Shown piece by piece: positions 4,007 to 35,613 of a stretch of 39,448 bases of DNA. A program made the translations under genes and the position numbers. The stretch covers positions 1 through 39,448 of the forward strand of contig JACDGQ010000001.1 of assembly GCA_013821615.1 (NCBI GenBank), read 5' to 3'. The DNA comes from Planctomycetota bacterium (GTDB taxonomy: Bacteria > Planctomycetota > UBA11346). Below the pieces are notes generated by a model. It made no database searches and was not told where the DNA came from. It saw only the letters and a program-made list of their open reading frames with translations. The first letter of the stretch is position 1. Every line of letters begins with the position of its first letter.

Positions 4007-4408
4007 TCAGGATGGACAGTCTAGCGTGTAGACCCACGCCGTGCCGCTGTTCGGGGCGCTCATCACCACGAGGCACCACGACGGATCACCCGGCTGCGGA
4101 TTGTAGGCCCACTGCAACGTCGCCGATCCCGACACTAGTCCGCCGGTCGAGGCGACCAGGACACCCTTGTAGAAGCAGTCGAGCCGGTCCGGGATCGAGT
4201 ACATGTCATAGGTGATCCGCACAAGGCCGGCGGTGGGGCCGAGGCCGTGGCGGGTCTTGGTGGTGCCCTGACCGCCGCTGGCGGTGGCCTGGCCGCAGGG
4301 TTGCGGCGGGCGCTCGTCGAGCGGGCAGACGTTGCACTCCGTGACCGTCAGGCCCGAACAGGCCGAGGGTTTCAGGTCAGGACAGGTGGTGGCGGCGAGG
4401 CACTTCAC
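4007..4408 (-). CDS. Small Cys-rich hypothetical protein (133 aa from GTG 4408)
   Basis: GTG 4408 overlaps the TGA of the upstream glycosyltransferase gene (a GTGA overlap). The N-terminal third carries 7 Cys (CLAATTCPDLKPSACSGLTVTECNVCPLDERPPQPC). The rest is beta-rich (ITYDMYSIPDRLDCFYKGVLVASTGG...). I recognised no family. This is the last gene before the composition drop. Confidence 0.5.
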   Translation of the reverse strand: MKCLAATTCPDLKPSACSGLTVTECNVCPLDERPPQPCGQATASGGQGTTKTRHGLGPTAGLVRITYDMYSIPDRLDCFYKGVLVASTGGLVSGSATLQWAYNPQPGDPSWCLVVMSAPNSGTAWVYTLDCPS

Positions 4409-5517
4409 CAGCGGCCTCCGGGGCAGCGCGCCACCGGCGATCGAATGCGCTCGGCGATGACGAAACCGCACCCGCAGAGAGCGCACTGGTCGTTGCCGGG
4501 ACGGTAGCGGTCACAGGTCAAGCAGGAGGCTCGGCGGCGATCGATCTCCTCCGCTGTCGGTGGAGTTGGCCGATCGTCCAGCGGCGCCGTGTCGATTAGG
4601 TCGTTGCCCGTCTCGCGCATGACCAGCGACCGATCTGGCTCACGCAGGACAATGGTCTCGGGCTTCGTCCATCCAGGGATCGACGAGACCGAGCGGCCTT
4701 TCCAGGCGTCGATGGAACCGGGCACCACGCGCATGCGCGTGAGCATCTCCTCAATGGCGGCGATGGTTTCAGGGATGCCGCCCCAGACCGGCAGGCAGAG
4801 GCGCTGGTTCCAGCGGTGCATGTCGGCGAAGCGCATGGTTACCGGCATGCCGTCGCGCAGCACCAGGGAGCGACGCTCGTCACCGCGCTGCGGATAGAGC
4901 ACGAGTTGTGGCGTGTCCACCAGCGAGGCGAGATGCCCAATGCCGGAGTCGAGGGTCACTACCACACGTGCTCCGCGTAGCAAACGCAGCGTGCCCGTCA
5001 CCGCGTCGCCGATCGCATCGAGATCCCACGCACGCACGTCGGCAGAAACGTCGACGCTTTCGGCCCGCGATCCGGCAAGGCCGACCGTCCAACCGCGCGC
5101 TTGGATTTCGGCAGCCAGCGCGGCCCACGGCCAGCCATTCTTGGCGTCGGCGTAGGGCTTCGCGCGCGGAGCGAGGACGACGTCCACCGGATACGGCTCT
5201 GGCAGAGCGATGGCCGGCTTGGGATAGGACTCACCGTTCGGCTCCCACGCGCGGAGGTTAGCGCGTGGCCAGTGTTCCTGCGCGATGTGGCGCAGATCCT
5301 CGATGAGGACGTCCGGGCGGATGCCGTAGTCGTAGCCATCGGGATACCGGCTCATCACCGGAGCCCACAGGCGAGAGTCGGGCACGGCCGGGTACAGTGC
5401 GGCGTGCGCGGGATTCCCGCCGATGATGTCGCCGGGCTGGTAATGCACCCAGATCCACGGCAGCACATCGCGGACGAGATCGCCGAAATGACCGAACCAG
5501 GGCAGGAAGACCGTCAT
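4405..5517 (-). CDS. GT9 (heptosyltransferase-like) glycosyltransferase with a C-terminal Cys-cluster extension
   Basis: The segment VVVTLDSGIGHLASLVDTPQLVLYP and the preceding VVLAPRAKPYADAKNGWPW...GWTVGLAGS fit the GT9 ADP-heptose transferase pattern. The C-terminus reads CLTCDRYRPGNDQCALCGCG...RCPGGRW. I prefer ATG 5517 (MTVFLPWFG) because it forms an ATGA overlap with the upstream stop at 5514. Confidence 0.65.
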   Translation of the reverse strand: MTVFLPWFGHFGDLVRDVLPWIWVHYQPGDIIGGNPAHAALYPAVPDSRLWAPVMSRYPDGYDYGIRPDVLIEDLRHIAQEHWPRANLRAWEPNGESYPKPAIALPEPYPVDVVLAPRAKPYADAKNGWPWAALAAEIQARGWTVGLAGSRAESVDVSADVRAWDLDAIGDAVTGTLRLLRGARVVVTLDSGIGHLASLVDTPQLVLYPQRGDERRSLVLRDGMPVTMRFADMHRWNQRLCLPVWGGIPETIAAIEEMLTRMRVVPGSIDAWKGRSVSSIPGWTKPETIVLREPDRSLVMRETGNDLIDTAPLDDRPTPPTAEEIDRRRASCLTCDRYRPGNDQCALCGCGFVIAERIRSPVARCPGGRW

Positions 5518-6632
5518 GCGAGATACCCTCCTTCGGTTTTGCAGGCGCCCCACGTCGAGACGCTCTCCACCGTCCCATCGCTGGAGTAGCCGGCGACACT
5601 GACATTCGTGACGCGACCCTTGGGAGTGACGGTGAGCGTGAGGTCCACGCCACAGTTCGTCGTGCCGCTGGAAAAGAGCCCGGCGCGTGGAGAGATGGTG
5701 ACCGTACCGCCGCCTGCTGCTGGTGTGGTGACCGTGCCATTGGTCGTGCCGTTCGAGAGCTGACCGGCGCCGAGGTACGCCGCATTGGCAGTGCTGACCT
5801 GGATGGTGTCGCCGTAGAACAGCCGAACTCCCGTGCGCCCACCGCAGACATCCGCGGTCAGTTCATTCGAGGTCTGCCGGATGAGCGCCCCGCGCGTCGC
5901 CCAGAGCCAGGACGAGCCATCGAAGGCGAGGTTCAGATGCGCCGTGAACACGCCGACGTATTTGTTGCGGTAGGTCCAGTTCACCTGGGTCTGTGGACGG
6001 GAGAACTCCAGTGTGCTGCTGATGGTGAGCGCCGCGCCGAACTCGGGCTGGTTGGCCGCGAGCCAGGTGTTGAGGGCGCCGAGACTGCCGGCGAAGCCCG
6101 ATACGCCGGAGAGGTAATCCTGCTCATAGGTGGAGTCGGCGCCGTACTTGATCCGCTTGCGGATGGCGAGAGTCGACCGGTCCCACGACAGCGCCGCTGG
6201 CACGCGTCCGGTCCAGCCCACTCGTTGATCGCGCAGCGTGCGGACGCGCACCTTGTTGAGCACCGCACCGAGGCCAGGCAGCGTGGTCATGAGATCCGCG
6301 CCGCCGCGCTGGAGCTTAGCCTGGTTGTAGGTCGTGCTGCCGCTGACGAGGATCTCGTACTCGTCAGCGCGGTCACCGCCGGAGCGCCACGCACGCAGGC
6401 GCACGCCGGGGCGAGTGACGCCGAAGCGTGTGAGTGCGAGCGAGGCCACCTCGGCAAAGAACTCCACGTTGCCGAACTCGAACGGCATGGCAGTGGAGTT
6501 GGCGACATCGATCCACACCAGGTCGGTCCAATGGGCGGTCTCGTCGTCGTAGACCTGCCCAACGGAATTGTCGGCGGTGTCGAGCACCATCGCCACCCGC
6601 ACGCGCACGATCTGATTGAGGACCAGGGCCAT
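5514..6632 (-). CDS. Hypothetical tail or host-recognition module protein (372 aa)
   Basis: The ORF is translationally packed within the tail-fibre region. Its C-terminus is rich in Gly, Thr and Ser. I recognised no family. Confidence 0.5.
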   Translation of the reverse strand: MALVLNQIVRVRVAMVLDTADNSVGQVYDDETAHWTDLVWIDVANSTAMPFEFGNVEFFAEVASLALTRFGVTRPGVRLRAWRSGGDRADEYEILVSGSTTYNQAKLQRGGADLMTTLPGLGAVLNKVRVRTLRDQRVGWTGRVPAALSWDRSTLAIRKRIKYGADSTYEQDYLSGVSGFAGSLGALNTWLAANQPEFGAALTISSTLEFSRPQTQVNWTYRNKYVGVFTAHLNLAFDGSSWLWATRGALIRQTSNELTADVCGGRTGVRLFYGDTIQVSTANAAYLGAGQLSNGTTNGTVTTPAAGGGTVTISPRAGLFSSGTTNCGVDLTLTVTPKGRVTNVSVAGYSSDGTVESVSTWGACKTEGGYLA

Positions 6633-6641: not shown

Positions 6642-7931
6642 CTACAGCCGCGCAAATTTGTCGTGCCAGCCGGCACCGAGGTTGCCGACCGAGACGTTGC
6701 GGGTGATGCGGGCTTCGCAGGTGGTGATCTTGCCGGTGGCCGAGACGGTGATCTGGACCGTGAGCGCGGCTTCGCCGGAGAACAGATTCCGGGTGACGGT
6801 GGTCGTGGTGCCAAAGGCAATGGTCGTCGCTGAGACGTCCCCAGCCGGCTTGGTCTGGGTGATGCTGCCCCACTCGGTGTAGTAACCGGGGACGAAGTTC
6901 CCGTAGATGATGTACCGACCGCCGGAAGCGGTGCGGTTCATGATCACCTGCTGGATGGCCACCACCGCCTGCCAGGCATCGCCGATGGGTGTGAGGAAGA
7001 CCTGGGCATAGGCTGTCTGCTCGATGGATTTCCAGCACGCTTGGCCATAGACCCGGCAGGGATAGATCGGTCCGGGCTGGTTGTAATCCGGGTCGAGATA
7101 GGTCGCCGGGTTCTGCATGAACCACATCGTGTAGCCCAAGGCCCCGTAGACTTCGCAGCCGTACTCGGCGGTTGCGGCTGTGAATTCGAGCTTGAGCGCG
7201 GCGGCGTTTTCGCTGAACCCCAGGGCTAGCGGCTTGAGCTTCAAGAAGAAGCCGAGGTTCTGGCTGGTGCTGCCGGCGGTGAGCACTTGGCCCACCGCTC
7301 CACGGAAGCCGTAGCGACCGACCCAACACGGCACCCGCAAGGGAAGCGGTGCCGCCGCGCTGCCATCCTCCGCGAGCAGCGGACTGTCCACGGTGGCTTT
7401 GGTCGCGTTCCCCGGCGCCTGGATGGTGACATCCGTCAGCGTGCTCAGGCTGTTCCCGCCGTTGGCGGTGAGCCCGGTCACCGCTAGCACCGGCCGATCA
7501 GTACCACCGCGCGTCTGCTGCCCAAGGTAGGCGTTCACCGACCGCGAGGCGAGGTTGCAGTTCCAGGCAGCGAACCCGCTCGCCGTGCTGTGCCGCCAAT
7601 CGAACCACCACCAGGTGGTGAAGACGCGGCCGACCTGCGGCGGGTTGTTCTGCGCCGATTGGACGATCGAGCGGTCGTCCGGGTTTTCCGGATCGCCGGT
7701 GCAGGAGATGCCGACCACATGCGATGGGCTGAGGTCGTACTCGTAGTGCAGCGGCGTGCCGACCGAATCACCGAACGGTTGACGGATCGCGCGGTCGGAG
7801 ATGCCCACCGTCCAGAAGCGGAAAGCTGCGGCGTTGGCCTGCTGTGGAAAATCTCCGGCCCGCAGTCCAAGGGGACGGGGTATGGTCGAACCCAAACCAA
7901 GGTCGAGGAATTGCGGCGTGGCGTCGGTCAT
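6642..7931 (-). CDS. Hypothetical tail or baseplate-region protein (429 aa)
   Basis: The ORF starts 5 nt after the tail-fibre gene stop. It has sensible composition, unlike the overlapping frames. I recognised no family. Confidence 0.5.
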   Translation of the reverse strand: MTDATPQFLDLGLGSTIPRPLGLRAGDFPQQANAAAFRFWTVGISDRAIRQPFGDSVGTPLHYEYDLSPSHVVGISCTGDPENPDDRSIVQSAQNNPPQVGRVFTTWWWFDWRHSTASGFAAWNCNLASRSVNAYLGQQTRGGTDRPVLAVTGLTANGGNSLSTLTDVTIQAPGNATKATVDSPLLAEDGSAAAPLPLRVPCWVGRYGFRGAVGQVLTAGSTSQNLGFFLKLKPLALGFSENAAALKLEFTAATAEYGCEVYGALGYTMWFMQNPATYLDPDYNQPGPIYPCRVYGQACWKSIEQTAYAQVFLTPIGDAWQAVVAIQQVIMNRTASGGRYIIYGNFVPGYYTEWGSITQTKPAGDVSATTIAFGTTTTVTRNLFSGEAALTVQITVSATGKITTCEARITRNVSVGNLGAGWHDKFARL

Positions 7932-7935
7932 CGCA

Positions 7936-10290
7936 TCACATCCACACCGGGACTTGGATGAAGAAGTCGTAGTGGGCGACGGCGGTGCCGGCCTGTCCGG
8001 TCTTCAGCACGCCACATGCGATGGTCCAGGTGCTGGGTGGAATGGTCTTCGTGCCATCGCCCTGGAGCTGCGTGGTGCTGGTGATCCAGGCCACGGCCAA
8101 GCTGGGGTACTCCGGGTAGAGCGTGATCGAGTAGACGTTCGAGCCGGTCTTGGCGGTGATCTTTCCAACCATCGCCGGATGCTGGCCGTGGCTGGTCCCG
8201 CCAGCGGCAGCGCTGTTCTTCCAGGTGCTCGTGGCCGCGTCATAAGCCAGCACCTGCTTGTCCAGCGGCGCGGTGACGGCCACATCTTCCAGCGCATCCA
8301 GGGTGTGGTTGATGAGCGAGGTGACGCCACTCTTCGAGGTCAGGATCTGCAGCGTGCCGCCGGGATTGCCCGGCAGCCGCGTCGGCGCACCGGTGGCCCC
8401 GCCGACGATCAGATCGCCGACCGTGGTCATCGGGTTGGCCAGCAGGTTGGTTACCGGATCGCCCAGGTGGTAGTCAACCCCGGCGATGGTGAGGTAGTCC
8501 TTCACCAGCTTGGCGTTGGTGACGGTGCCATCGGCGATCTTCGGTCCGGTGACGGCGTTCGCCGCCAACTCGGCGGTGCCCACCGCGTTTGCTGCGATCT
8601 GGGCGTTGGCGGTGGTGCCAGTGAGGTCGCCGCCGAGGATGTGGTCGTGCGGTTCCGGCGGGAAGGTCGCCGGAACGTTGGTGAGCTTCGCCCAGGCCAC
8701 TGAGACGACCTTGGGATCGGTGATGGCGCCATCGGCGATCTCGGCGGTGCCCACCGCGCCGGCCACGATCTGGGCGTTCGCCGTCGTGCCGGTGAGGTCG
8801 CCGCCCACCGCGTGGTCGTGCGGCGTGGGTGGGAACTGAAATGGTTTCCCGGTGACCTCGCCCCAATCGGGCCAGCGGATCGCGGTCTGCGGTGGGCCGG
8901 TGATTTTGGCCCAGGCGACGGTCACGATCTTGGCGTCGGTGATCGCGCCATCCGCCACAGCGACGGTGGTGACGGCGTTGGCGGCCAGCTTCGGGGCGGT
9001 AACCGCACCATCGGCCAGCTTGCCCGTCGTCACGGCGGCATCGGCAAACGCGCCGGTCGGGATCTGCAGCCACTGGAGCGTGCCGCCCACGCGCAGCAGG
9101 GCGCGGTCGTCGGTCGTTGCTGCGAACGCGGCCGGACGAGCCGACGCTCCGGTGGCATTGGCGAGCACGCTGGTGCCAGCTACCTCCTTCAGGTCGCCAA
9201 CTTCGAAGTCGCGGAACTCTGGCTTGGCATCCGCTCCCGACACCGGCCCAGCGAGCACCTGATGCGCGGGCACCGGGTCAGCGACGATCACGTCGCGCGG
9301 CTTCCAGCGTTCGGCAGCAGCATCCCACAACGCGGCCTGCTCATCCGTGGGCGGGACCGTGATCACATCCACATCGGTCAGGTCGGCGAAGCGCTCGGCT
9401 CCGCCACCAGCGCCGGCGCTTCCGGCGCGCACGACGCAGAGGCGATCCTGGGCATGGTGCAGGACCAGACGGCCGTTCTCGCTCGGCTTGGTCGGCGTTA
9501 GGCCACCGGGCACGCCGGGGTCGAGCCAGTAGTCGGTGTGTGGCGTCAGACCGTCCAGACAGCAGATGCCCCACAGCACCAGCAACGCGGTGTCCACGTC
9601 AGGAATGCGGCCAACCACTGCCAGGACATCGGTGGAGCCGACCACACCGGCATCCGCCAATGCCCAGGTCGCACCGGTCCAGCGCAGCACGTCGCCGACG
9701 AACCAGGCGTGATTGGTGGCGGTAACGTCCAGCACGAGATTCGGTGATCCGCCGGCAGCACCACCGGCGGGAAATTGGACGATGCCCCAGGCCACGCCAG
9801 TGCCGGGTTCTTTCCACAGGATGCGCGCACCGCCTTCGTCGCCCGTGGCCAAGCTGCCGGTCTCGTCGGTGACGATCGCCGCGAGTTCGTCCTCCTCGGC
9901 ATCGATGTCGAGGCGCATCGGCGTGACGCCGGCGACCATCGCCCGGCCGACGCCATTGGCGGCGATGGGTTCCTGCAGGATGCAGAAGCGGTTGGCGTGA
10001 TCATCCTTGTCCGGCGAGATGCCGCTGAAGGTGATGCGCTCCTGAAACGCCTGCGGATTCTCGCTCGGCAGAATGAGTGGATCGTCGAGGCCGAGCACGG
10101 CGAAGCGGCTCTGGTCGGTGCCCGAGTCGTTGCGGATCAGGACGATGCCGGGGATCGCCACTGTCATGCCACCATCGGCCGAGCGTGACTGCCGGCTGGC
10201 CTGGTAGGCCGTGGCGGCATCGACGAACGAGTTGAAGGTCTCGGCGGAGATCTTCAGCGGCTGCCCGGCCGCGACCTTGGCGAGCGTCAC
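7936..10290 (-). CDS. Tail fibre or central fibre protein with internal tandem repeats and HxH motifs
   Basis: The 784-aa ORF has repeated segments at aa ~415-598. These include short AVTxxKLA/IADGAITDxK units and two copies of FPPxPHDHxxGGDLTGTTANAQI. Its position is downstream of the tape measure and a Dit-like gene. Confidence 0.7.
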   Translation of the reverse strand: MTLAKVAAGQPLKISAETFNSFVDAATAYQASRQSRSADGGMTVAIPGIVLIRNDSGTDQSRFAVLGLDDPLILPSENPQAFQERITFSGISPDKDDHANRFCILQEPIAANGVGRAMVAGVTPMRLDIDAEEDELAAIVTDETGSLATGDEGGARILWKEPGTGVAWGIVQFPAGGAAGGSPNLVLDVTATNHAWFVGDVLRWTGATWALADAGVVGSTDVLAVVGRIPDVDTALLVLWGICCLDGLTPHTDYWLDPGVPGGLTPTKPSENGRLVLHHAQDRLCVVRAGSAGAGGGAERFADLTDVDVITVPPTDEQAALWDAAAERWKPRDVIVADPVPAHQVLAGPVSGADAKPEFRDFEVGDLKEVAGTSVLANATGASARPAAFAATTDDRALLRVGGTLQWLQIPTGAFADAAVTTGKLADGAVTAPKLAANAVTTVAVADGAITDAKIVTVAWAKITGPPQTAIRWPDWGEVTGKPFQFPPTPHDHAVGGDLTGTTANAQIVAGAVGTAEIADGAITDPKVVSVAWAKLTNVPATFPPEPHDHILGGDLTGTTANAQIAANAVGTAELAANAVTGPKIADGTVTNAKLVKDYLTIAGVDYHLGDPVTNLLANPMTTVGDLIVGGATGAPTRLPGNPGGTLQILTSKSGVTSLINHTLDALEDVAVTAPLDKQVLAYDAATSTWKNSAAAGGTSHGQHPAMVGKITAKTGSNVYSITLYPEYPSLAVAWITSTTQLQGDGTKTIPPSTWTIACGVLKTGQAGTAVAHYDFFIQVPVWM

Positions 10291-11096
10291 GAGCCGATCC
10301 CCAAGCCGGCGAACGACGCGAAGGGATAGACCTGCTCGACGTAGACCGCGATTGGCTTCTTGATCAGCACCTTGGCGGCCTGATCCACGTCATCGCCGTA
10401 CTGCACCCACAGGTAGTCCCAGCCGCGCTTCTGGATGTTGCTGATGCTGCCGACCGACAGGTTCGACCGGTTCGGCGAGGCGGCGAACTTGTAGCTGATC
10501 TCCCAGCGGTCGGTCGCGTCCAGGCCACGACGGCTGCCGCTGGCACCGAGAAAGATCACCTCGCCGGCCTGGAAGCCGCGAAACGAAAAGCTGTTCACGG
10601 CGCCGGTCAGTCCGAAGAGTGACAGCTTGTAGCCCTGGGTGACGAAGCTGGGGTCGAGGTAGTGCGTCTCCGAGAACTGGTAGACTGGAACGGTGATGTC
10701 GACGCCGGCGACGTTCTGTCCATCGTAGCCGATCGCTCCGCCGAGGGCGGTGCTCGCCGAGGGGCCGTAACGACCGACCGTCTGCAGTGACTGCGTGATG
10801 TGCTGAGTGCCGCCGCCGGTGTCGAAGGCGAAGGTCGGCTCGGGGTTGTCTTGCTGCGAGGCCTCGGCTGCCTCGTAGGTGACGGTCACCTTCCAAGTCG
10901 TCTCGTTGAGACGCTCCTCCAGCGTGATCGATTTGAGGAACATGCCGGCATAGACCGGCGGCACCTGCGCCAAGGCCAGGGCGCGAACCTCGGCCTCGTC
11001 CACCGCGTCGAGCACGACGTAGTGCATCTCGGCCTTGGGCTTGTCGCTCAGGGTCTCGGTACGGCCGGCGAAGAGTTCGTGGAGCGAGGCGGGCAT
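10287..11096 (-). CDS. Minor tail protein (position of a distal tail protein)
   Basis: The 269-aa ORF lies immediately after the tape measure gene and overlaps the next gene by 4 nt. The assignment is by position only. Confidence 0.45.
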   Translation of the reverse strand: MPASLHELFAGRTETLSDKPKAEMHYVVLDAVDEAEVRALALAQVPPVYAGMFLKSITLEERLNETTWKVTVTYEAAEASQQDNPEPTFAFDTGGGTQHITQSLQTVGRYGPSASTALGGAIGYDGQNVAGVDITVPVYQFSETHYLDPSFVTQGYKLSLFGLTGAVNSFSFRGFQAGEVIFLGASGSRRGLDATDRWEISYKFAASPNRSNLSVGSISNIQKRGWDYLWVQYGDDVDQAAKVLIKKPIAVYVEQVYPFASFAGLGIGS

Positions 11097-13414: not shown

Positions 13415-13704
13415 TACGGACGCGCCTTGGGTTGGATGCCCGCCGCATCCAGGTTGCGATAGTAGTCGAGCGTCGGCTCATCCAGCGCGACCATGCCTTG
13501 GAGTCGAGCCTCGCCGGGCAGCCAGCCGCCTTTGCCATCGGGCAGCACCACCTGGATCGGTCGGTCATCCACGATCCGGGCAGGCGTGCCCATTTGCGCC
13601 CAGACCACTTCACGGGACAGGGCCACCCGTTCGGGAAAGATCCCGCAGCCGGTCAGGGCGAGCGAGACGATCAGCAGCAGGAGCGAGAGGGTCGTTGATC
13701 GCAC
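13414..13704 (-). CDS. Lipoprotein (96 aa)
   Basis: The N-terminus MRSTTLSLLLLIVSLALTGC is a signal peptide with a lipobox (LTGC). The stop overlaps the tape measure GTG start by 1 nt. Confidence 0.65.
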   Translation of the reverse strand: MRSTTLSLLLLIVSLALTGCGIFPERVALSREVVWAQMGTPARIVDDRPIQVVLPDGKGGWLPGEARLQGMVALDEPTLDYYRNLDAAGIQPKARP

Positions 13705-28298: not shown

Positions 28299-28310
28299 GC
28301 GGATTCCTCG

Positions 28311-30008: not shown

Positions 30009-30346
30009 CAGGCGACCTGGGTGCGCCGGCGATACGCTTGGTGACGCCGGACGGCGTGGCCACCCGGCAGCTTGCAGTCGAGCACCGCCTGGGCTTGGTC
30101 GTTGGTGACTTTTCCGCTGTCATCGACCAGGTGGTAGCACCGCGCCGCAGCGCGCATGACTGCGTCGAAGCCGTGGACTTGGAGCAGGTTGTTCCAGCCT
30201 TGGCGCTGCACCGATCCCGGCTCGCCGAGGTCGGCCAGCAGTCCGAGGAAATGGAGTGACGTCTCGTCGATTGCGTGGCGCTCGGGCAAGACTGGATGGG
30301 CGCGGCGGATGCCGTCAGCGTCGAGGAAAGGCGTGCTGTCGCTCAT
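30008..30346 (-). CDS. Hypothetical protein (112 aa)
   Basis: The ORF has ATGA-type overlaps on both sides. I recognised no family. Confidence 0.45.
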   Translation of the reverse strand: MSDSTPFLDADGIRRAHPVLPERHAIDETSLHFLGLLADLGEPGSVQRQGWNNLLQVHGFDAVMRAAARCYHLVDDSGKVTNDQAQAVLDCKLPGGHAVRRHQAYRRRTQVA

Positions 30347-30834
30347 GGGCGTTGCTCCAGAAGGCGGCCGTACTCGGCCAGACAGAGGGCGTCGGCGATG
30401 CCGTCGTGCGGAACGCGGCAGCCGGGAAGGACGAGATCAGCGGTCGGCCAGCGACTGGTGCAGAACTGCACTGCGCCGGCCTTGTCATGCGGCAGGCCCA
30501 AGAGCACCCGCTTCTTCCAAATCGTGGATGGCACCAGGACAACCGAGGCGCCGAGCGCGGCACAGACGCCGCGCACCATGCCCCAACCGGTGCCGAACTT
30601 GAACGTCGAGGCCACGCCCTGCTTGGGCATGGAGCTGACCTTCTCCACGCAGACCCGTCCGATGTCTTGATGGTTATCGAGACAGCGCAGGGATCTCAGC
30701 AGGTCGGCCAAGCCGGCGGGATGGACCTCGCCGCCGGCCACCGGCATGGGCCATAAGCCCACGACGGCGCCGGCGTGATCGAGGGCGGCCACTCCACCAA
30801 TGAGACCGGGATCGATGCCGATGGTGAGGTGCAT
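30343..30834 (-). CDS. RuvC-like Holliday junction resolvase
   Basis: The sequence shows MHLTIGIDPGLIGGVAAL (the first acidic motif) and, later, VPHDGIADALCLAEYG. This is the typical phage RuvC-fold pattern. Confidence 0.7.
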   Translation of the reverse strand: MHLTIGIDPGLIGGVAALDHAGAVVGLWPMPVAGGEVHPAGLADLLRSLRCLDNHQDIGRVCVEKVSSMPKQGVASTFKFGTGWGMVRGVCAALGASVVLVPSTIWKKRVLLGLPHDKAGAVQFCTSRWPTADLVLPGCRVPHDGIADALCLAEYGRLLEQRP

Positions 30835-30843
30835 GCCGGCGCC

Positions 30844-31311
30844 TCAGCCTTTCCGCAGCCAGGGCGGCGTGGCGGTGCCGCCGGGAGCACCAGCCTGTTG
30901 CGGCACACCAGCCGCCGCATCCTTCTTGGTCCAGGCGGTGACCTCGTTGGTCATCTCGCCGTTGTCCTCGCGCTTCTTCAACTTCACAGTGACGGTCATC
31001 GGCAGGTTGTGCAGCTCGGCCGAATCCTTGGGCTGCATCACGCCGATCGCCCGGCAGACGGCTGACAGTTCGCCACGGGCGATCTGCACGGTCTGGGCGC
31101 TGGTGTGCTGGAGCGTGTGGCGAGACCACAGCTTCCGCCCCTTGTGCTCGCCATCGAGAATCTGGTATTCGAGTTCGAGGTACTGCCCCGCGCCGTTCTT
31201 GGTCGGCTTCATCTCGCTGGCCGTGACGGCAGCGACGTACTTGCCGGCCGGGACCGGATCTTTTCCGGAGCTGGGCTCGACCTGGTTGGCATCGAAGTTG
31301 AGAGTGGCCAT
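30844..31311 (-). CDS. DUF669-family phage protein (ssDNA-binding-like)
   Basis: The sequence is MATLNFDANQVEPSSGKDPVPAGKYVAAVTASEMKPTKNGAGQYLELEYQILDGEHKGRKLW. This matches the DUF669 pattern, and the gene is adjacent to the AAA_24 gene, as is usual. Confidence 0.65.
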   Translation of the reverse strand: MATLNFDANQVEPSSGKDPVPAGKYVAAVTASEMKPTKNGAGQYLELEYQILDGEHKGRKLWSRHTLQHTSAQTVQIARGELSAVCRAIGVMQPKDSAELHNLPMTVTVKLKKREDNGEMTNEVTAWTKKDAAAGVPQQAGAPGGTATPPWLRKG

Positions 31312-31330
31312 GGGTGGTTCCTTGGTTGTT

Positions 31331-32116
31331 TCAGCGGTTGGTGGAGGGGACGGTGGTGCTGGCTGCGGCGATCGCGTTGTTGGCAGTGAGGTGCTTGGCG
31401 AACTCCGACCACGCGAGCGGCAGTTCGTCGGGCAGGTTCAGGCGGTTCTTGGCGAGATGGCTGGGACGCTCGGTGGCGCGCAGCACGCGCTCGCCGGAGC
31501 CCAAGCCCTGGACGCGCTTCTGGTTGAAGCCCTCGTCGGTGGCCTTGGTGAAGACGCGGTAAGTGGCGAAGAGGACTTCGTCGCACCACTCCGACACGAG
31601 AGCAGTCGCAGTCTTGTGCAGGCGCGGCACGTAGCGGTCGTAGGCTTCGGTCTCGGGATTCTCGAAGCGTTCGATGCGGGCGTGGGCGATGAGGATCACC
31701 GTCATGCCCCGGTGCTCACGTAGCGCGGCGAGTCCATCGAGCACGTCGCGCCAGTGCGTGAGGGCGAAGGTGTAGCCCTTGCCGTAGCCGATGTCCTCGA
31801 TGGTAGCGACTTGGCGCGTGGCGCAGACCTTGGCCCAGATCAACCGCTCCAACCAGTCGAGCGAATCGATGACCACGCTGCGATACGGATGATTCTCGCT
31901 GTAGAGCGCACCGAGCGACTGCATGAATTCGTCGAACGACTGCGCGACGGGAAACTTGTGGCAGTCGATCTCGCCGAGGCCGTCCTCGGTCTGGAGAACC
32001 ACGGGCGACGGCGCACACGTGGCGAAGGTGGACTTCCCGATTCCGGCAGTGCCGTAGACGAGCAGACGACGCGGACCCGACTTGGCGCCGGTGATGATGG
32101 AGGTGAGCAAGCTCAT
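31331..32116 (-). CDS. AAA_24 family ATPase (Sak4-like RecA-fold recombination protein)
   Basis: I chose ATG 32116 (MSLLTSIITGAKSGPRRLLVYGTAGIGKSTFA), which contains Walker A. Walker B is VVIDSLDWLE. The track ORF 31331..32308 has an implausible N-terminal extension. Confidence 0.8.
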   Translation of the reverse strand: MSLLTSIITGAKSGPRRLLVYGTAGIGKSTFATCAPSPVVLQTEDGLGEIDCHKFPVAQSFDEFMQSLGALYSENHPYRSVVIDSLDWLERLIWAKVCATRQVATIEDIGYGKGYTFALTHWRDVLDGLAALREHRGMTVILIAHARIERFENPETEAYDRYVPRLHKTATALVSEWCDEVLFATYRVFTKATDEGFNQKRVQGLGSGERVLRATERPSHLAKNRLNLPDELPLAWSEFAKHLTANNAIAAASTTVPSTNR

Positions 32117-32169
32117 AGGGCTGGTCCTCGAAGGGCTGAGAGTGACTGGAGTGGCTGGTTGGTCGTGAG

Positions 32170-33006
32170 TCAGGCGAGGTAGTCGAAGCTGCGGGTCTGC
32201 TCGTAGCCGGTCGGCCAGCAGTCCTGCGCGCGACAGACCTTCAGCCGCTCGATCGCAGCGAGGTTCTCCCGCGCAGCGGCGTCGAGGACCTGATCGGAGA
32301 AGCGCCACACGCCGACGCGATACGGTTCCTTCTTCTCCACCGCGATGACGTGGACCTCCGGCTTGCGGCCGGTGACCTGGGCAAGTACCGCGCGGTAGAA
32401 CGCGAGCTGGTGCGCGTAGCCGAATGAGCGCGCCTGCAGCTCAAAGTAATCGAGATCGTCGATGGTCTTGAGATCGACGATTCCGCGCTCGGGATGTGTC
32501 CAGTCGATGCGGATCTGTGACGGCAGACCGGCGAACTCGGCGCGCACCACTCCTTCGCCTTGGCCTTCAGCGATGAGCGACGTCGCCACGTCGTGCTCGC
32601 GCACCGCACGGGTGAGGCGATCGCAGAGGTCAGCGGTGTCCTGACTGATCGCCGGCTTGCCGATGGCTGCCGCCCATTCGGCATACGCCTTGGTGTCCTG
32701 GCCGAATGATTTACCGGTCTTCGGATTGATCGGGCCACCGATGGCGAAACGACGGCGGAACTCGGTCTCGCCTTCCAGTACACGGCAGTGAGCGGCGCGG
32801 CCGACGACAAACGCGGCCCGCTCTTCCTCGACGATCAGACCGAGTTGCTTGTTGCGATAGAGACGCGGATTCTTGCGGAATTCCGTCAACGCATGGCTGG
32901 AGAGGTGATCCTTGCGGCGAGCGGCGTAGGTCGCTTCCGGTTCAGTGATCAGAGCCGACGTGAAGGGCTGTGCAGGCGAAGACGACCAAGCGGCAGGCAA
33001 AAGCAT
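32170..33006 (-). CDS. PD-(D/E)XK (Cas4/RecB-like) nuclease
   Basis: The sequence ...QIRIDWTHPERGIVDLKTIDD...YAHQLAFYRAVL fits the D...(D/E)xK...QxxxY pattern. It is the first gene of the leftward early operon. Confidence 0.65.
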   Translation of the reverse strand: MLLPAAWSSSPAQPFTSALITEPEATYAARRKDHLSSHALTEFRKNPRLYRNKQLGLIVEEERAAFVVGRAAHCRVLEGETEFRRRFAIGGPINPKTGKSFGQDTKAYAEWAAAIGKPAISQDTADLCDRLTRAVREHDVATSLIAEGQGEGVVRAEFAGLPSQIRIDWTHPERGIVDLKTIDDLDYFELQARSFGYAHQLAFYRAVLAQVTGRKPEVHVIAVEKKEPYRVGVWRFSDQVLDAAARENLAAIERLKVCRAQDCWPTGYEQTRSFDYLA

Positions 33007-33291: not shown

Positions 33292-33810
33292 ATGTCCGAT
33301 AGCGTCACCATCACCATCAACACCTACGAAGGCGTCCTGCCTCTCTGGGCACATGAACTCACCCAGGTCTATGCCAAACGGCTGGGATACCGTCCCGACG
33401 AAATCGACGACGGTCTTCAGGAAGTGGCGATCGCCTTCGCCAAGTACCGCTTCGATCACACGCGAAATACCGGTGCCTGCGAACGCACGGCGCAGACCGC
33501 CCTGATCCGCAACGTGCTGCAGAAAGTCCAACGTGGTCAGGTGCGCTACACGCAGCGCCTGGAGTGCCTCCGCGCCGAGCCCCAGCGCCCCGAGGCTGGA
33601 CCCGACACGGTGGCCCAGCACGAACTGTGGCAGGTGGTGGCGGCGATGCCCGAGCCCGACCGCGAGATCTGCTTGCGGCTCGCCGCCGGCATGAACACCC
33701 ACGCGATCGCCAAGGAACTCGACATCGGCTGGTACACGGTGAAGCGCGGCATGGAGCGCATTAGGACCAGCTTCGCCGAAGCGGGCATCGATAGCGGACT
33801 CTTGGCCTGA
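33292..33810 (+). CDS. ECF-like sigma-70 family factor (regions 2 and 4)
   Basis: Region 2 reads LQEVAIAFAKYRFDHTRNTGACERTAQTALIRNVLQKVQR. Region 4 with its HTH reads ELWQVVAAMPEPDREICLRLAAGMNTHAIAKELDIGWYTVKRGMERIR. ATG 33292 is in frame with the track ORF 33229..33810. Confidence 0.65.
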   Translation: MSDSVTITINTYEGVLPLWAHELTQVYAKRLGYRPDEIDDGLQEVAIAFAKYRFDHTRNTGACERTAQTALIRNVLQKVQRGQVRYTQRLECLRAEPQRPEAGPDTVAQHELWQVVAAMPEPDREICLRLAAGMNTHAIAKELDIGWYTVKRGMERIRTSFAEAGIDSGLLA

Positions 33811-33811: not shown

Positions 33812-34081
33812 ATGCTCCAGCATCATTCCGCTCCGCCGGAACCGGCAGACATCACTGGATGTCCGCCGGAGTCCCGGCAACAGATGAAGGACCAAGGGGC
33901 GAATCCTCGCCCCTTGGCGGATGCCTGGATCAGCGACGACCTCCTTGCGGAAGCCATCGCCGTCTGGTCCCGGCTCTACCGCCGACCGATCGGCAAGGAG
34001 GAAGCCGTGGAAATGCTGCAGAACGTCAAACGCGCAGGCGAGGTGATCTACCGAATCGCTCGGGAGCAGGCTCAACCATGA
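33812..34081 (+). CDS. Hypothetical small protein, possibly a recombination directionality or regulatory factor by position
   Basis: The stop overlaps the recombinase ATG (an ATGA overlap). A shorter start at MKDQG (33884) is possible. I recognised no family. Confidence 0.4.
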   Translation: MLQHHSAPPEPADITGCPPESRQQMKDQGANPRPLADAWISDDLLAEAIAVWSRLYRRPIGKEEAVEMLQNVKRAGEVIYRIAREQAQP

Positions 34082-35613
34082 AGGTGCTGATCTGGACACG
34101 TGTCAGCTCCCGAGAACAGCGCGAAGGCTATTCCATCGACGCGCAGATGCGGGTCTGTCGTGAACGGGCCGAGCGGCAGGGCTGGACGGTGCTCCGCGAG
34201 TTTCAGGTTGCCGAGTCAGCCAAGCGCGGCGCCGAACGACTCGCCTTCAACGAGATGTTCGCGTGGGTGCGGAGGAACGCGAAACGGGAAGGCCTGGAGG
34301 TCATCCTCGCCCACAAGCTCGACCGCGTCTGCCGCAACATGAAGGACGCAGTCCGCCTGCAGGAATTGGAGGACCAATGCGGGGTCAAGCTGGCCTTCGT
34401 CGACAACCAGTTCGGCACCGGCGCATCTGGGGTGCTGTCGTTCAACGTGATGGCGGCAGTGGCGCAGTATTACAGCGACAATCTCCGGTCGGAGGTCCTC
34501 AAGGGTATGGAGGAGAAGATCCGCCAGGGCTGGCCGATGGGCCGGGCGAGCTACGGCTACAAGAATGTTCCCGACAGGTCCTGCCCGGTGGTGCCTCATC
34601 CCGAGAAGGCCAAGACCGTGGTGCAGATCTTCGACTGGTTCTCGACCGGCCAGTACACCCTGGATGCCCTGGGTGACCGCTTGCTCGCCGAGGGCCATGA
34701 GTTCCGGACGACCTACCCTCGGTTCAACCGCACCGCCTTGGCCTACATCCTCCACAACCGGGGGTACATCGGCGAGATCGTCCACCGGGGGGTCTCACAC
34801 GTCGCCAAGTTCCAACCGCTGGTCTCACGGACGACGTTCGATGCCTGCCAGGTGGTGCTGAAGGGACGCAACCGCCGTTCATCCACCCCAGACCTGCCCT
34901 ACCAAGGCGGCGTCTTCCGGTGCGCCCATTGCGGGGCGATGATGACCGGCGAGCGGATCGTCCGCCGGCACAACGACGGCACCGAGGCGCGCCACGTCTA
35001 CTACCGGTGCGCCAACAACGCCCCGCCGGCGGAGCACCCGAAGGTGCGCTGGAAAGCCGCCGACCTGGAAGCTGCCGTTGTCGCCGAGTTGGAGACCCTG
35101 CGCATCCACGACGAAGGACACGCCCAGTTGATTCGCAGCACCCTCAAGGCCGCCTTTGCCGACGTGGCCAAGGCTGAGGAGGATCGCCGCCGCGTTTTGT
35201 TGAAACGCCAAAGCGAGTTGAAGGGGAGACTGGATCGACTGCTCAACGCCTACCTCGAAGGGGTGATCGAGCAGGCTCCGTTCTCGGTCAAGCAGGGCGA
35301 GCTTCGTGTGGAATTAGCCGATATTTCCAGGCAACTTGAGGAGCGGCCGACCTTCGATCCCAAGCGCGGGGAACTGGCCCTGGGGCTCTTCGACTTCATG
35401 CAGAACGCCGCGAATCTGTGGCGGCGTTCAAACATGGAGCAAAGGCGTGAGCTTTTGGCTGCGATAGCTTTGAACCGCAATGTTAGCGACGTAAAGCTTG
35501 TGCTAGAAAAGAGAAAGCCCTTCGACATTGCTGTCGAAGGGCAAGTATTCCATTTTGGTCGGACCGACAAGATTCGAACTTGCGACCTCTACCACCCCAA
35601 GGTAGCGCTCTAA
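34078..35613 (+). CDS. Large serine recombinase (integrase)
   Basis: MKVLIWTRVSSREQREGYSIDAQ carries the catalytic Ser motif of the resolvase domain. The recombinase domain (WPMGRASYGYKN) follows. The Zn-ribbon reads CAHCGAMMTGE...YYRCAN, and a coiled-coil region follows it. The last 58 nt are antisense to tRNA-Pro (...RTDKIRTCDLYHPKVAL). Confidence 0.9.
   Translation: MKVLIWTRVSSREQREGYSIDAQMRVCRERAERQGWTVLREFQVAESAKRGAERLAFNEMFAWVRRNAKREGLEVILAHKLDRVCRNMKDAVRLQELEDQCGVKLAFVDNQFGTGASGVLSFNVMAAVAQYYSDNLRSEVLKGMEEKIRQGWPMGRASYGYKNVPDRSCPVVPHPEKAKTVVQIFDWFSTGQYTLDALGDRLLAEGHEFRTTYPRFNRTALAYILHNRGYIGEIVHRGVSHVAKFQPLVSRTTFDACQVVLKGRNRRSSTPDLPYQGGVFRCAHCGAMMTGERIVRRHNDGTEARHVYYRCANNAPPAEHPKVRWKAADLEAAVVAELETLRIHDEGHAQLIRSTLKAAFADVAKAEEDRRRVLLKRQSELKGRLDRLLNAYLEGVIEQAPFSVKQGELRVELADISRQLEERPTFDPKRGELALGLFDFMQNAANLWRRSNMEQRRELLAAIALNRNVSDVKLVLEKRKPFDIAVEGQVFHFGRTDKIRTCDLYHPKVAL
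35501..35541 (-). terminator. Intrinsic terminator-like hairpin 15 nt downstream of the tRNA-Pro 3' end, lying inside the recombinase ORF
   Basis: On the minus strand CCCTTCGACA-gcaa-TGTCGAAGGG forms a perfect 10-bp stem. It is followed by CTTTCTCTTTTCT. Confidence 0.6.

What the first reader, a model, noticed from the sequence alone, without database searches (positions are those of the whole stretch)
4007..35613. Prophage retains complete replication, packaging and tail modules but lacks capsid, protease, endolysin and repressor
**What is present.** Every ORF in the ~31.6 kb element is intact and tightly coupled, with many ATGA/GTGA overlaps.

**What is missing.**
- There is no full major capsid gene.
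- There is no prohead protease or scaffold gene.
- I recognised no endolysin.
- I recognised no CI/Cro/Ant-type repressor.

**Control functions.** The only recognisable ones are an ECF-like sigma factor and a large serine recombinase on the opposite strand.

**Interpretation.** This fits either a recently crippled prophage or an element maintained for another role. Candidates are a tail-only particle, carriage of defence or anti-defense cargo, or helper-dependent mobilisation.
Basis: inference. Interest (0 to 1): 0.6.

Follow-up and report, generated by a model that had tools for sequence, protein, structure and literature searches.

The report
Prophage crippled by one head-gene deletion
This is an otherwise intact temperate tailed phage in a planctomycete genome that lost its capsid-making genes in one ~1.9 kb deletion, which fused the portal gene to the capsid gene; the "missing" lysis and repressor genes are unrecognisable in its intact relatives too, so it is an ordinary, recently disabled prophage.

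Summary
The window is a whole 39.4 kb contig of a fragmented Planctomycetota MAG. Positions ~4007-35600 hold a lambda-like siphophage next to tRNA-Pro.

**Capsid, protease and scaffold: confirmed missing, one cause.** ORF 18069-19709 is a chimera of portal aa 1-335 joined at nt 18705|18704 to the last 211 aa of the capsid protein.
- All 61 relatives with both flanks carry 1.7-2.2 kb at this point.
- That segment encodes the portal C-terminus, a head-maturation protease, the scaffold linker and the capsid N-terminus.
- The closest relative (~90% nt on both sides) carries the portal C-terminus, protease and scaffold there; its capsid N-terminus lies in an assembly gap.
- Every other gene is full length. 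dN/dS of the two chimera halves (~0.09) equals that of neighbouring genes, so the lesion is young.

**Endolysin and CI/Cro: not losses.** Pfam and PHROGs on every ORF, plus AlphaFold/Foldseek on the two largest unknowns, found none. None appeared in a fully syntenic relative without the head deletion either, or among the 20 conserved extra-gene clusters I inspected in ~160 related loci.

**Control genes.** The family uses a phage sigma factor and a conserved antisense HARE-HTH gene.

**Rival readings.** I found no support for a tailocin, a satellite or a domesticated element.

The parts
4007..4486 (-). Last late gene (g159). Its C-terminal ~100 aa form a widespread repeat or binding domain. 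The true start is probably internal.
   Evidence: It matches phrog_26008 at 5.6e-11. There are 995 homologs, and the domain is often repeated in 800-1800 aa surface proteins carrying Calx-beta or Por_Secre_tail domains, with one NlpC/P60 fusion. Homologs are the last late gene seen in C135, C253 and G004:C1.
4405..5517 (-). Glycosyltransferase family 9-like protein with a Cys-rich C-terminal module.
   Evidence: Pfam Glyco_transf_9 at 7.7e-9. The C-terminus matches phrog_13558. Relatives carry other glycosyl- or methyltransferases in this slot.
5514..6632 (-). Unknown all-beta late protein (g372), presumably a tail-tip or host-recognition component.
   Evidence: No Pfam or PHROG hit. It has 29 same-length homologs. 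AlphaFold2 gives pLDDT 70 and an all-beta model. No fold match in PDB or BFVD, with TM<=0.2.
6642..7931 (-). Unknown late protein (g429) with a beta-sandwich C-terminal half, presumably a tail-tip or host-recognition component.
   Evidence: No Pfam or PHROG hit. It has 25 homologs. AlphaFold2 gives pLDDT 59, with the C-terminal half above 80. No PDB fold match.
7936..10290 (-). Tail fibre or Tal-like protein (784 aa).
   Evidence: It matches the PHROG tail fibre family phrog_892 at 5.9e-17. Its N-terminal ~265 aa are conserved just after the Dit-slot gene in 76 loci.
10287..11096 (-). Distal-tail-protein slot gene (269 aa).
   Evidence: It sits between the tape measure and Tal genes and is conserved in 83 loci. 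It has no family hit, so the assignment rests on position.
11099..13414 (-). Tape measure protein.
   Evidence: It matches phrog_8462 at 2.5e-34 and 16 further PHROG families, most annotated as tape measure protein.
13414..13704 (-). Small lipoprotein (signal peptide ending LTGC).
   Evidence: Read directly from the sequence. It is conserved in 4 loci. C135 has a lipoprotein with a C-terminal TM segment in the same slot.
13800..14099 (-). Small membrane protein (99 aa).
   Evidence: Read from the sequence. It is conserved with the lipoprotein in G002:C20.
14105..14829 (-). Tail assembly chaperone G, with the frameshifted G-T extension.
   Evidence: The G part is conserved in 99 loci. The T domain lies in the alternative frame at 14401-14138 and is 53% identical to the C135 homolog.
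14850..15299 (-). Major tail (tube) protein.
   Evidence: Pfam Phage_tail_2 at 1.3e-8 and phrog_1407 at 7.7e-14.
15312..15746 (-). Tail completion / Neck1 protein.
   Evidence: It matches phrog_5 at 6.4e-5 and is conserved in 104 loci.
15743..16282 (-). Collagen-repeat plus C1q-like accessory protein in a variable slot.
   Evidence: A GPPGPPGPPG repeat is visible in the sequence. There is a weak Pfam C1q hit at 0.009. C135 has fibre-like genes in this slot.
16276..17343 (-). Three small connector-region genes of 85, 143 and 132 aa. The last is a small membrane protein.
   Evidence: They are conserved in 26, 87 and 15 loci respectively. None has a family hit.
17271..17663 (-). Head-tail joining protein.
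   Evidence: Pfam Phage_H_T_join_3 at 1.3e-38.
17671..18003 (-). Head cement / decoration protein.
   Evidence: Pfam Phage_cement_2 at 2.8e-20 and phrog_122 at 1.1e-14.
18069..19709 (-). Portal::capsid chimera of 546 aa. Portal aa 1-335 occupy nt 19709-18705, and the last 211 aa of the protease-scaffold-capsid protein occupy nt 18704-18069. The deletion junction is at 18705|18704.
   Evidence: Pfam Phage_portal_2 covers aa 49-337 (profile positions 10-326 of 354) and Phage_capsid_4 covers aa 335-541 (profile positions 82-261 of 262). PHROG portal and 'major head and protease protein' families match the same two halves. Relatives carry 1.7-2.2 kb at this point. The junction sequence is shown.
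19706..19909 (-). gpW-slot small head protein (67 aa).
   Evidence: It lies between the terminase and portal genes and is conserved in 82 loci. It has no family hit.
19971..22241 (-). Large terminase, gpA type.
   Evidence: Pfam GpA_nuclease at 3.3e-23. Full-length homologs of 48-96% identity occur in 80 genome loci.
22231..22470 (-). Small gene upstream of the terminase (79 aa), possibly a small terminase subunit or DNA-binding subunit.
   Evidence: It is conserved in 38 loci and has no family hit. The function is inferred from position.
22592..24106 (+). Opposite-strand cassette of three genes: a 120-aa unknown, a DUF6900+DUF7678 protein, and a Lys-rich HARE-HTH DNA-binding protein (23702-24106).
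   Evidence: Pfam hits at 2.8e-17, 2.1e-13 and 1.3e-12. The HARE-HTH gene is conserved on the antisense strand in 45-57 loci. A 70-nt repeat precedes the first two genes (D6).
24121..25365 (-). ParB-N plus N6/N4 DNA methyltransferase.
   Evidence: Pfam hits at 2.7e-22 and 3.5e-10.
25732..27963 (-). Primase-polymerase plus AAA_25 replicative protein.
   Evidence: Pfam hits at 1.6e-34 and 1e-12.
27963..30346 (-). A 111-aa unknown, a DEAD/ResIII helicase (28311-30008) and a 112-aa unknown.
   Evidence: Pfam ResIII at 2.7e-18 and Helicase_C at 9.6e-17.
30343..33006 (-). Recombination module: RuvC-like resolvase, DUF669, AAA_24 ATPase and a PD-(D/E)XK exonuclease.
   Evidence: phrog_1770 at 8.3e-26 and phrog_412 at 1.4e-44. 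Pfam DUF669 at 2e-20, AAA_24 at 1.3e-52 and DUF3799 at 3.1e-28.
33292..33810 (+). Phage sigma-factor-like regulator.
   Evidence: phrog_1740 'RNA polymerase sigma factor' at 4.4e-9. There is a weak Pfam Sigma70_ECF hit. Sigma-like genes occur in other family members.
33812..34081 (+). Small ORF (89 aa) coupled to the recombinase start.
   Evidence: Its frame and a 4-nt overlap with the recombinase ATG are visible in the sequence. It has no family hit.
34078..35613 (+). Large serine recombinase (integrase). Its last 58 nt overlap tRNA-Pro.
   Evidence: Pfam Resolvase, Recombinase and Zn_ribbon_recom. phrog_95 integrase at 4.4e-76.
35556..35634 (-). tRNA-Pro(GGG), the integration target at the right end.
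   Evidence: Found by ARAGORN. Homology to same-genus genomes starts at 35553/4.

Best explanation
The element is a temperate, lambda-like siphophage of an uncultured Planctomycetota host. A large serine recombinase integrated it at tRNA-Pro.

**Gene plan**
- On the + strand: sigma-like regulator, small ORF, recombinase.
- On the - strand, early operon: exonuclease, AAA_24, DUF669, RuvC, helicase, prim-pol, ParB-methylase.
- On the - strand, late operon: terminase, gpW-slot gene, portal, protease-scaffold-capsid, cement, connectors, tail, glycosyltransferase.
- On the + strand, between the two operons: a three-gene cassette.

**The lesion**
One illegitimate deletion of ~1.9-2.0 kb, with only 2-5 nt of microhomology, removed four things:
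- the last ~168 codons of the portal gene;
- the head-maturation protease;
- the scaffold linker;
- the capsid N-terminus, including the first ~81 positions of the capsid domain.

The deletion joined the two reading frames into a 546-aa chimera.

**Inferred consequences**
The prophage cannot build procapsids, so it cannot make virions. I infer that it can still excise, replicate and assemble tails.

**Age**
The lesion is recent. Nothing else is broken, and the chimera halves show the same strong past purifying selection as their neighbours.

**Endolysin and repressor**
The lack of a recognisable endolysin or CI/Cro repressor is a property of this poorly known phage family. It is not damage to this copy.
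For: **The chimera**
- Pfam and PHROGs split ORF 18069-19709 into portal (aa 1-337) and capsid C-terminus (aa 335-541).

**The missing segment in relatives**
- blastn gives a clean break at 18705|18704. Extra DNA at that point: 2012 bp in C577 (same MAG), 1930 bp in L001 and L002, 1964 bp in L003, ~2079 bp in L067.
- The same holds in the fully syntenic contig G001:C135.
- In 61 of 61 loci with both flanks the segment is 1681-2166 nt.
- The segment encodes a head-maturation protease (phrog_3244, 3e-16), a scaffold linker and the capsid domain from profile position 7. It also encodes the portal C-terminus.

**The closest relative**
- L097 is 88-91% identical on both sides of the junction. It carries the portal C-terminus, protease and scaffold.

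**Integrity of the rest**
- Nearly all other genes align over (near-)full length to C135 homologs.
- The chaperone frameshift domain is intact.
- dN/dS is 0.09-0.11 for the portal part and 0.09 for the capsid part. TerL gives 0.08 and g143 gives 0.09.

**Uniqueness**
- The chimera is alone in its 90% cluster.

**Endolysin and repressor**
- No lysin or CI/Cro family matches any ORF.
- None appears among the extra genes of C135.
- None appears among the 20 conserved extra clusters I inspected around TerL and Dit in ~160 loci; 10 of these (with two C135 extras swapped in) were also scanned with Pfam.
- g372 and g429 are all-beta with no lysozyme or amidase fold.
- The g159 domain is a repeat domain of large surface proteins.
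Against: - The source is a 69%-complete, 832-contig MAG that also holds related phage fragments.
- **The in-frame junction is unexplained.** I treat it as chance (about 1 in 3), but it could reflect selection for the chimera.
- **The low dN/dS is ambiguous.** It is equally compatible with a chimera that is maintained.
- **Excision, replication, tail assembly and host killing are all inferred.** None was observed.
- **Non-detection is not absence.** An unrecognised endolysin or repressor may be present.
- **The element's full extent is unknown.** The left end, attL, is not in the window.
Confidence: 0.8

Rival explanations
1. The junction is not biological. It is an assembly or binning artefact, or it represents only a minority deletion variant in a population whose dominant prophage is intact.
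For: The source is a fragmented MAG of 832 contigs with 68.8% completeness. Several related phage fragments sit in the same bin. A 29-nt stretch just before the junction is identical between the window and C577.
Against: The two sides of the junction share no k-mer-length repeat. Only ~2-5 nt of microhomology is present, so a de Bruijn assembler has no path between them without reads that span the junction. The contig has no Ns. Both sides are about equally close to one relative, L097 (91% and 88-90%), as expected for a single parental genome.
Confidence: 0.08
2. The head-less prophage is maintained rather than decaying. It might be a helper-dependent element packaged by a co-resident relative's capsids. 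Alternatively, the in-frame portal::capsid chimera might interfere with head assembly of related superinfecting phages.
For: The same MAG holds a related head module that is intact, C577, with 77% aa identity in portal and capsid. It also holds other related modules. The chimera is in frame and shows low dN/dS. Two other portal::capsid chimeras with different junctions exist in public data, P0035 and P0049.
Against: No other genome shares this junction. Nearly all of the low dN/dS predates the deletion. Fusion proteins are only detectable when in frame, which is an ascertainment bias. Co-residence in one cell cannot be shown from a MAG bin. There are no expression data.
Confidence: 0.07
3. The element is a domesticated tail-only particle, an F-type tailocin-like bacteriocin.
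For: A complete flexible-tail module remains next to a destroyed head module: tube, G/GT chaperone, tape measure, Dit-slot gene, Tal or fibre, and two unknown tip proteins.
Against: Terminase, gpW-slot gene, cement, head-tail joining, the full replication module and the integrase are all intact. Known tailocin loci lack these genes (established knowledge of R- and F-type pyocins). There is no dedicated lysis cassette. The deleted form is not conserved in other genomes.
Confidence: 0.03

Closest known systems
Defective (cryptic) prophages produced by internal deletion, such as the lambdoid remnants DLP12, Rac and Qin of E. coli K-12. For reviews of 'grounded' prophages see PMC6379469 and PMC7744054, which I cite by title and abstract only.
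   Same: It is an integrated temperate tailed phage that has lost genes essential for virion formation while keeping many others. Deletion is the usual route of decay.
   Different: Here there is a single lesion in an otherwise complete genome, and it forms an open portal::capsid chimera. The host is an uncultured planctomycete, and the phage family has no cultured member (best TerL identity to any GenBank phage is 28%).
Phage lambda head-gene module: terminase gpA, gpW, portal gpB, protease gpC / scaffold Nu3, decoration gpD, capsid gpE.
   Same: The order matches: gpA-type terminase (PF20454), a 67-aa gene in the gpW slot, then a lambda-family portal (PF05136), followed by protease/scaffold/capsid functions and a decoration or cement protein.
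   Different: In this family the protease, scaffold and capsid are one ~685-720 aa ORF (phrog_4523 'major head and protease protein'), and the cement gene follows it. The capsid is Pfam Phage_capsid_4 / Mu gpT-like. In the window copy most of this ORF and the portal C-terminus are deleted.
F-type tailocins (F-pyocins).
   Same: What it could work like: on induction, a lambda-like flexible tail would be made without a head.
   Different: It is not a member. Packaging, head-accessory, replication and integration genes are retained. There is no tailocin-type lysis or regulatory cassette, and the arrangement is not conserved.
Phage satellites (PICI, cf-PICI, P4-like).
   Same: It might depend on another phage's capsid genes, and a related phage sits in the same bin.
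   Different: It is ~31 kb and carries its own terminase, complete tail genes and a full phage replication module. It has no recognisable capsid-redirecting or helper-sensing genes. The defect is a fresh deletion, not a designed gene set.

Membership tests
Functional temperate Caudoviricetes prophage | Integrase next to an attachment site. | tested here: met
   A large serine recombinase is present (Pfam Resolvase, Recombinase and Zn_ribbon_recom; phrog_95 at 4.4e-76). It abuts tRNA-Pro. Homology to relatives starts at the tRNA 3' end.
Functional temperate Caudoviricetes prophage | Complete portal protein. | tested here: not met
   Only aa 1-335 of ~503 are present. The Pfam profile is covered over positions 10-326 of 354, against 10-354 in the intact relative P0002.
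Functional temperate Caudoviricetes prophage | Complete major capsid protein, with a maturation protease and scaffold. | tested here: not met
   Only Phage_capsid_4 profile positions 82-261 remain. The protease (phrog_3244) and scaffold are found only in relatives' extra segment. tblastn finds no second copy in the window.
Functional temperate Caudoviricetes prophage | Large terminase and a complete tail module. | tested here: met
   TerL is full length against 80 homologs. Tube, G/GT chaperone, tape measure, Dit-slot gene and Tal/fibre are all full length against C135.
Functional temperate Caudoviricetes prophage | Recognisable lysis cassette (holin plus endolysin). | tested here: inconclusive
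   No lysin family matches any ORF. None was seen in relatives either, in the C135 extra genes or the conserved clusters I inspected. Small membrane and lipoprotein genes are present.
F-type tailocin | Tail genes without head, packaging, replication or integration genes. | tested here: not met
   Terminase, gpW-slot gene, cement, head-tail joining, the replication module and the recombinase are all intact.
F-type tailocin | Locus fixed and conserved across strains of the host clade. | tested here: not met
   The deletion junction is unique among 61 loci and in the protein collection. Same-genus genomes show no recombinase or late-gene matches in the ~3 kb loci examined around tRNA-Pro.
Phage satellite (PICI / cf-PICI / P4-like) | Small element (~5-20 kb) lacking most virion genes, with helper-exploiting functions. 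| tested here: not met
   The element is ~31.5 kb, with full tail, terminase and replication modules. No satellite-type genes were recognised.
Lambda-family portal (Pfam PF05136) | Match over the whole profile above the gathering score. | tested here: inconclusive
   The score of 180.5 bits is well above the cut-off of 32.9. The match stops at profile position 326 of 354, and the ~140 residues that follow the domain are absent.

The most novel reading that the evidence does not exclude
The in-frame portal::capsid chimera is not debris. It is an expressed decoy that poisons procapsid assembly of related superinfecting or co-resident phages, which would give the host a reason to keep the head-less prophage. 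Three observations are compatible with this:
- independent portal::capsid chimeras occur in other members of this phage family;
- an unrelated lineage has a portal break at the same CLNMPF site;
- related phages with intact head genes sit in the same MAG.

A second, separate possibility is that this whole planctomycete phage family uses a non-canonical lysis or release system. That would explain why no endolysin is recognisable in any member.
Probability: 0.05. Interest if true: 0.7.

Novelty: new member of a known kind. Interest (0 to 1): 0.25.

Why it matters
The main result is a clean negative. An apparently odd gene complement (tails and packaging but no head, lysis or repressor) reduces to two ordinary causes.
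- One fresh deletion accounts for the missing head genes.
- Poor annotation of an uncultured phage family accounts for the missing endolysin and repressor.

The case has modest further value.
- It is a well-documented example of the first step of prophage decay: a single lesion in an otherwise intact genome.
- It comes with a family-level gene map, based on ~160 loci, for a widespread siphophage group of Planctomycetota and their PVC relatives.
- That family has a fused protease-scaffold-capsid gene, a phage sigma factor, and no recognisable endolysin or CI-type repressor. The last two points are worth an experimental look.

Tried and rejected
**Searches for annotated or cultured relatives**
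- megablast of 24 kb against GenBank phages gave no relative.
- TerL tblastn against the same set gave at most 28% identity, so no annotated cultured relative could be used to locate lysis genes.

**att repeats**
- Direct-repeat search for att duplications within the window found none.
- blastn-short of the tRNA 3' end against the whole MAG found no second copy. attL is unassembled.

**Read evidence**
I therefore did not attempt read laying.

**Hunt for an endolysin or repressor**
- Pfam on all ORFs, then a second pass at E<=1 on the small unknowns.
- PHROGs on the unknowns, regulators and several structural/recombination genes.
- PDB sequence or profile searches for the sigma-like protein, g372 and g429. 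These gave only a FixJ HTH hit at E=0.5 and a GH12 beta-sandwich hit at E=0.02, both insignificant.
- AlphaFold2 plus Foldseek (PDB, BFVD) for g372 and g429 gave no fold match.
- A search of g159 against 1.84 billion representatives, with Pfam on its multidomain homologs, shows a binding-type repeat domain, not an enzyme.
- Clustering of all extra ORFs around TerL and Dit in ~160 loci, with representatives of 20 conserved clusters read by eye and 8 scanned with Pfam (plus two extra genes of C135). This gave methyltransferases, glycosyltransferases, a Hint-domain protein, a cytosine methylase (by eye), an amidoligase (by eye), a sigma factor and RM cargo. No lysin appeared.

**Inter-phage recombination as the origin of the junction**
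- I considered this because identity to L001 drops from 87% to 70% across the junction.
- I rejected it as unnecessary, because L097 is equally close on both sides.

**L093/L094 downstream DNA**
- I tested whether it is a farther part of the phage, which would mean a larger deletion from the same site. tblastx found no homology.

**Spurious ORF**
- The 700-aa ORF 22460-24562 was rejected as an antisense artefact.

Full report
**Context**

The window is the whole of contig C576 of a MAG of 4.3 Mb and 832 contigs, with GC 68.9%. The MAG scores 68.8% completeness and 1.2% contamination. Terminase relatives lie almost entirely in Planctomycetota and other PVC MAGs.

Composition splits the window into three parts:
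- a low-GC left flank (1-4000, GC 0.51-0.58) with a subtilase and an AAA ATPase gene;
- the phage block (~4007-35600, GC ~0.66, GC3 0.8-0.9);
- a host flank with an RND pump (GC3 0.96).

tRNA-Pro(GGG) lies at 35556-35634 on the minus strand.

**Gene map**

I picked reading frames by GC3 periodicity, then scanned every ORF with Pfam and most with PHROGs.

On the + strand, from the right end:
- a sigma-like regulator (33292-33810; phrog_1740, 4.4e-9);
- an 89-aa ORF;
- a large serine recombinase (34078-35613).

On the - strand, in transcription order (coordinates fall):
- the early operon: PD-(D/E)XK exonuclease, AAA_24, DUF669, RuvC-like resolvase, helicase, prim-pol/AAA_25, ParB-methyltransferase;
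- a 79-aa gene, gpA-type terminase and a gpW-slot gene;
- ORF 18069-19709;
- cement protein, head-tail joining protein and three small connector genes;
- a collagen/C1q-like accessory gene, Neck1 and the tail tube;
- the G/GT chaperone, whose frameshift domain is intact;
- a small membrane protein, a lipoprotein and the tape measure;
- a Dit-slot gene, a Tal/fibre protein and two unknown proteins (429 and 372 aa);
- a GT9-like glycosyltransferase and a final small gene (g159).

Three genes at 22592-24106 are on the + strand: an unknown, a DUF6900+DUF7678 protein and a HARE-HTH protein. The 700-aa minus-strand ORF across them is an antisense artefact.

**The head defect**

ORF 18069-19709 matches two families.
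- Residues 49-337 match the lambda-family portal profile, positions 10-326 of 354.
- Residues 335-541 match Phage_capsid_4, positions 82-261 of 262. PHROGs agrees.

A second contig of the same MAG, C577, carries a related phage. There the two halves are separate genes 2.0 kb apart.

blastn places a clean break at window 18705|18704. Extra DNA at this point is:

| Relative | Extra DNA |
|---|---|
| C577 | 2012 bp |
| L001 and L002 | 1930 bp |
| L003 | 1964 bp |
| L067 | ~2079 bp |

In all 61 loci that contain both flanks, the projected segment is 1681-2166 nt. Family-wide, the portal is ~489 aa and is followed by a ~685-aa ORF.

In C577 that ORF is 720 aa.
- Its N-terminal part hits 'head maturation protease' (phrog_3244, 3e-16).
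- A Pro/Thr/Ala-rich linker follows.
- The capsid domain starts at residue 423.
- The window retains only the part from residue 511 onward, and only portal residues 1-335 of ~503.

The junction reads ...CTGAACATGCCGTTC|TCGATCGATCGGCG.... Intact portals continue ...GTTCAAYATCGCGGC, and the capsid side in C577 reads ...CTCATGCTCTCCATCGACCGC. The microhomology is therefore only 2-5 nt.

The closest relative, L097, is 91% identical on the portal side and 88-90% on the capsid side. It contains the portal C-terminus, protease and scaffold, interrupted by an N gap that hides the capsid N-terminus. A simple internal deletion in one genome suffices to explain the window.

**Age**

- Nearly all other genes align over (near-)full length to their homologs on the fully syntenic 40,960-bp contig G001:C135; the tape measure aligns in two pieces and the sigma-like gene found no match there.
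- Pairwise dN/dS against L097 or L098 is 0.09-0.11 for the portal half and 0.09 for the capsid half. TerL gives 0.08 and g143 gives 0.09.
- Essentially all divergence therefore accrued while both genes were under selection.
- The chimera has no other member in its 90% cluster.

**Is it real?**

The two sides share no repeat long enough for a k-mer assembler to join them, and there are no Ns. I therefore take the junction as real, with about 90% confidence. It may represent only one strain of a population.

**Endolysin**

- No lysozyme, transglycosylase, amidase or peptidase family reached E<=0.01 in any ORF. A second pass at E<=1 on the small unknowns also found none.
- All coding capacity of useful size is accounted for.
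- C135, which lacks the head deletion, has the same gene set. Its extras are fibre-like proteins, a VapBC-like pair, small + strand genes, and a lipoprotein with a C-terminal TM segment. None is a lysin.
- I clustered every extra ORF within 10 kb of TerL (80 genome loci) and 10 kb downstream of the Dit-slot gene (80 IMG/VR loci) and inspected representatives of 20 conserved clusters. They comprise methyltransferase, MptE-like and DXD glycosyltransferases, a Hint-domain Ser/Gly-rich protein, a cytosine methylase, an amidoligase, sigma factors and restriction-type cargo. No lysin appeared.
- The g159 domain is a ~100-aa repeat found up to seven times in large surface proteins.
- g372 (pLDDT 70) and g429 (pLDDT 59, C-terminal half good) are all-beta. 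They have no significant fold match in PDB, and g372 none in BFVD either.
- No cultured phage is close enough to help.

The missing endolysin is thus a family-wide blind spot. Small membrane and lipoprotein genes embedded in the structural operon (16945-17343, 13800-14099, 13414-13704) are the only lysis-like features. One paper reports non-lytic 'chronic' release of an unrelated phage from a cultured planctomycete (PMC10945688). I note it only as context.

**Repressor and control**

- No CI/Cro/Ant family was found.
- The sigma-like gene is a family trait. Sigma-like genes occur in C135, L008, L018, L020, L034 and L068.
- Two near-identical sites lie upstream of the late and early operons on the minus strand, starting at 19966 and 33109. 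They read GAAC-N5-CGACAAAAA-N9/10-TCGGCGGGGAGTAAT. That they are promoters is an inference.
- The Lys-rich HARE-HTH gene is antisense to the structural genes in 45-57 loci. It is my best candidate for a lysogeny-expressed regulator; this too is an inference.

**Boundaries**

- Homology to same-genus genomes starts at 35553/4, the tRNA 3' end. G008 has a different terminator after its tRNA. Phage DNA therefore reaches the tRNA.
- No second copy of the tRNA 3' end exists in the MAG, so attL is not assembled.
- g159 is the last late gene. Host-like genes follow it in G004:C1. McrBC-like genes follow it in C135. A recombinase plus two ParB-like genes follow it in C253. The subtilase/AAA pair follows it in the window.

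**Rival readings**

- **Tailocin or satellite:** the retained terminase, head-accessory, replication and integration genes contradict both.
- **Helper dependence or a decoy role for the chimera:** these remain open but unsupported. The MAG holds other related modules: C577 (head), C253 (tail), and C241, C678 and C680 (replication). Two other in-frame portal::capsid chimeras with different junctions exist, P0035/L095 and P0049/L096. Only in-frame fusions can be found this way.

**Verdict**

This is an ordinary, recently disabled prophage and a new member of a known kind.

Noticed in passing
L093 nt ~1238 and L094 nt ~1139 (JGI metagenome contigs); equivalent to window 18705-18708: A separate lineage has its portal gene broken within 0-6 nt of the window's junction, after ...NEIARCLNMP(F). 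About 50 nt shared by the two contigs follow, and then unrelated genes with no Pfam hit. Either this conserved stretch is a recurrent breakpoint or the match is coincidence.
   Followed up: partly
L095 4538-6541 (GCA_964526295.1) and L096 2426-3721: These are two other in-frame portal::(protease-)capsid chimeras, of 667 and 431 aa, with different junctions. L095 also has a Fic gene and an acetyltransferase on the opposite strand beside the head genes.
   Followed up: partly
window 2-3946: A low-GC subtilase (S8) plus AAA ATPase pair lies directly downstream of the last late gene. An earlier follow-up in this scan calls it an IetAS-like defence pair. In relatives the same slot holds McrBC-like genes (C135 113-2784) or restriction/helicase cargo (clusters 18 and 20). 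This looks like a cargo hotspot at the end of the late operon.
   Followed up: partly
window 22528-22597 and 23032-23101; also C135 ~25900 and L097 4148-4217 / 4598-4679: A ~70-nt module is repeated in front of different + strand accessory genes and is conserved between phages. It can be read as a shared peptide, MMH.FFTAK.NWM.PMC.GNT. It may be a leader, a signal or a regulatory element.
   Followed up: no
window 19928-19966 and 33072-33109 (minus strand): Near-identical 38-nt sites precede the late and early operons. They are candidate promoters for the phage sigma factor.
   Followed up: partly
window 13414-14099 and 16945-17343; C135 11835-12416: Small membrane and lipoprotein genes lie inside the structural operon. 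In C135 the slot between the chaperone and tape measure genes holds one lipoprotein with a C-terminal TM segment, which resembles a unimolecular spanin. They could act in lysis or in superinfection exclusion.
   Followed up: no
G000 contigs C577, C253, C241, C678, C680: The same MAG holds fragments of at least one or two further related phages, at 60-85% aa identity. They include a head module that is intact. No second terminase was found, though the MAG is only 69% complete.
   Followed up: partly
L181 (G011:C77) and L184 (G015:C243) near tRNA-Pro: Partial copies of 27-32 nt of the tRNA-Pro 3' end lie within a few hundred nt of the tRNA in same-genus genomes. They look like scars of other integrations, which suggests the tRNA is an integration hotspot.
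   Followed up: no
L004 3458-5196; cluster 53 (L008, L022, L031-L033, L040, L075): Some relatives carry an insertion between the terminase and the gpW-slot gene. In seven loci the insert is a ~430-500 aa gene that reads as a DNA cytosine methyltransferase (not scanned with Pfam).
   Followed up: no
window 15743-16282: A collagen-repeat plus weak C1q-like gene sits in a variable slot of the connector region. C135 carries Gly-rich and fibre-like genes in the same slot, which may encode head or neck fibres.
   Followed up: no
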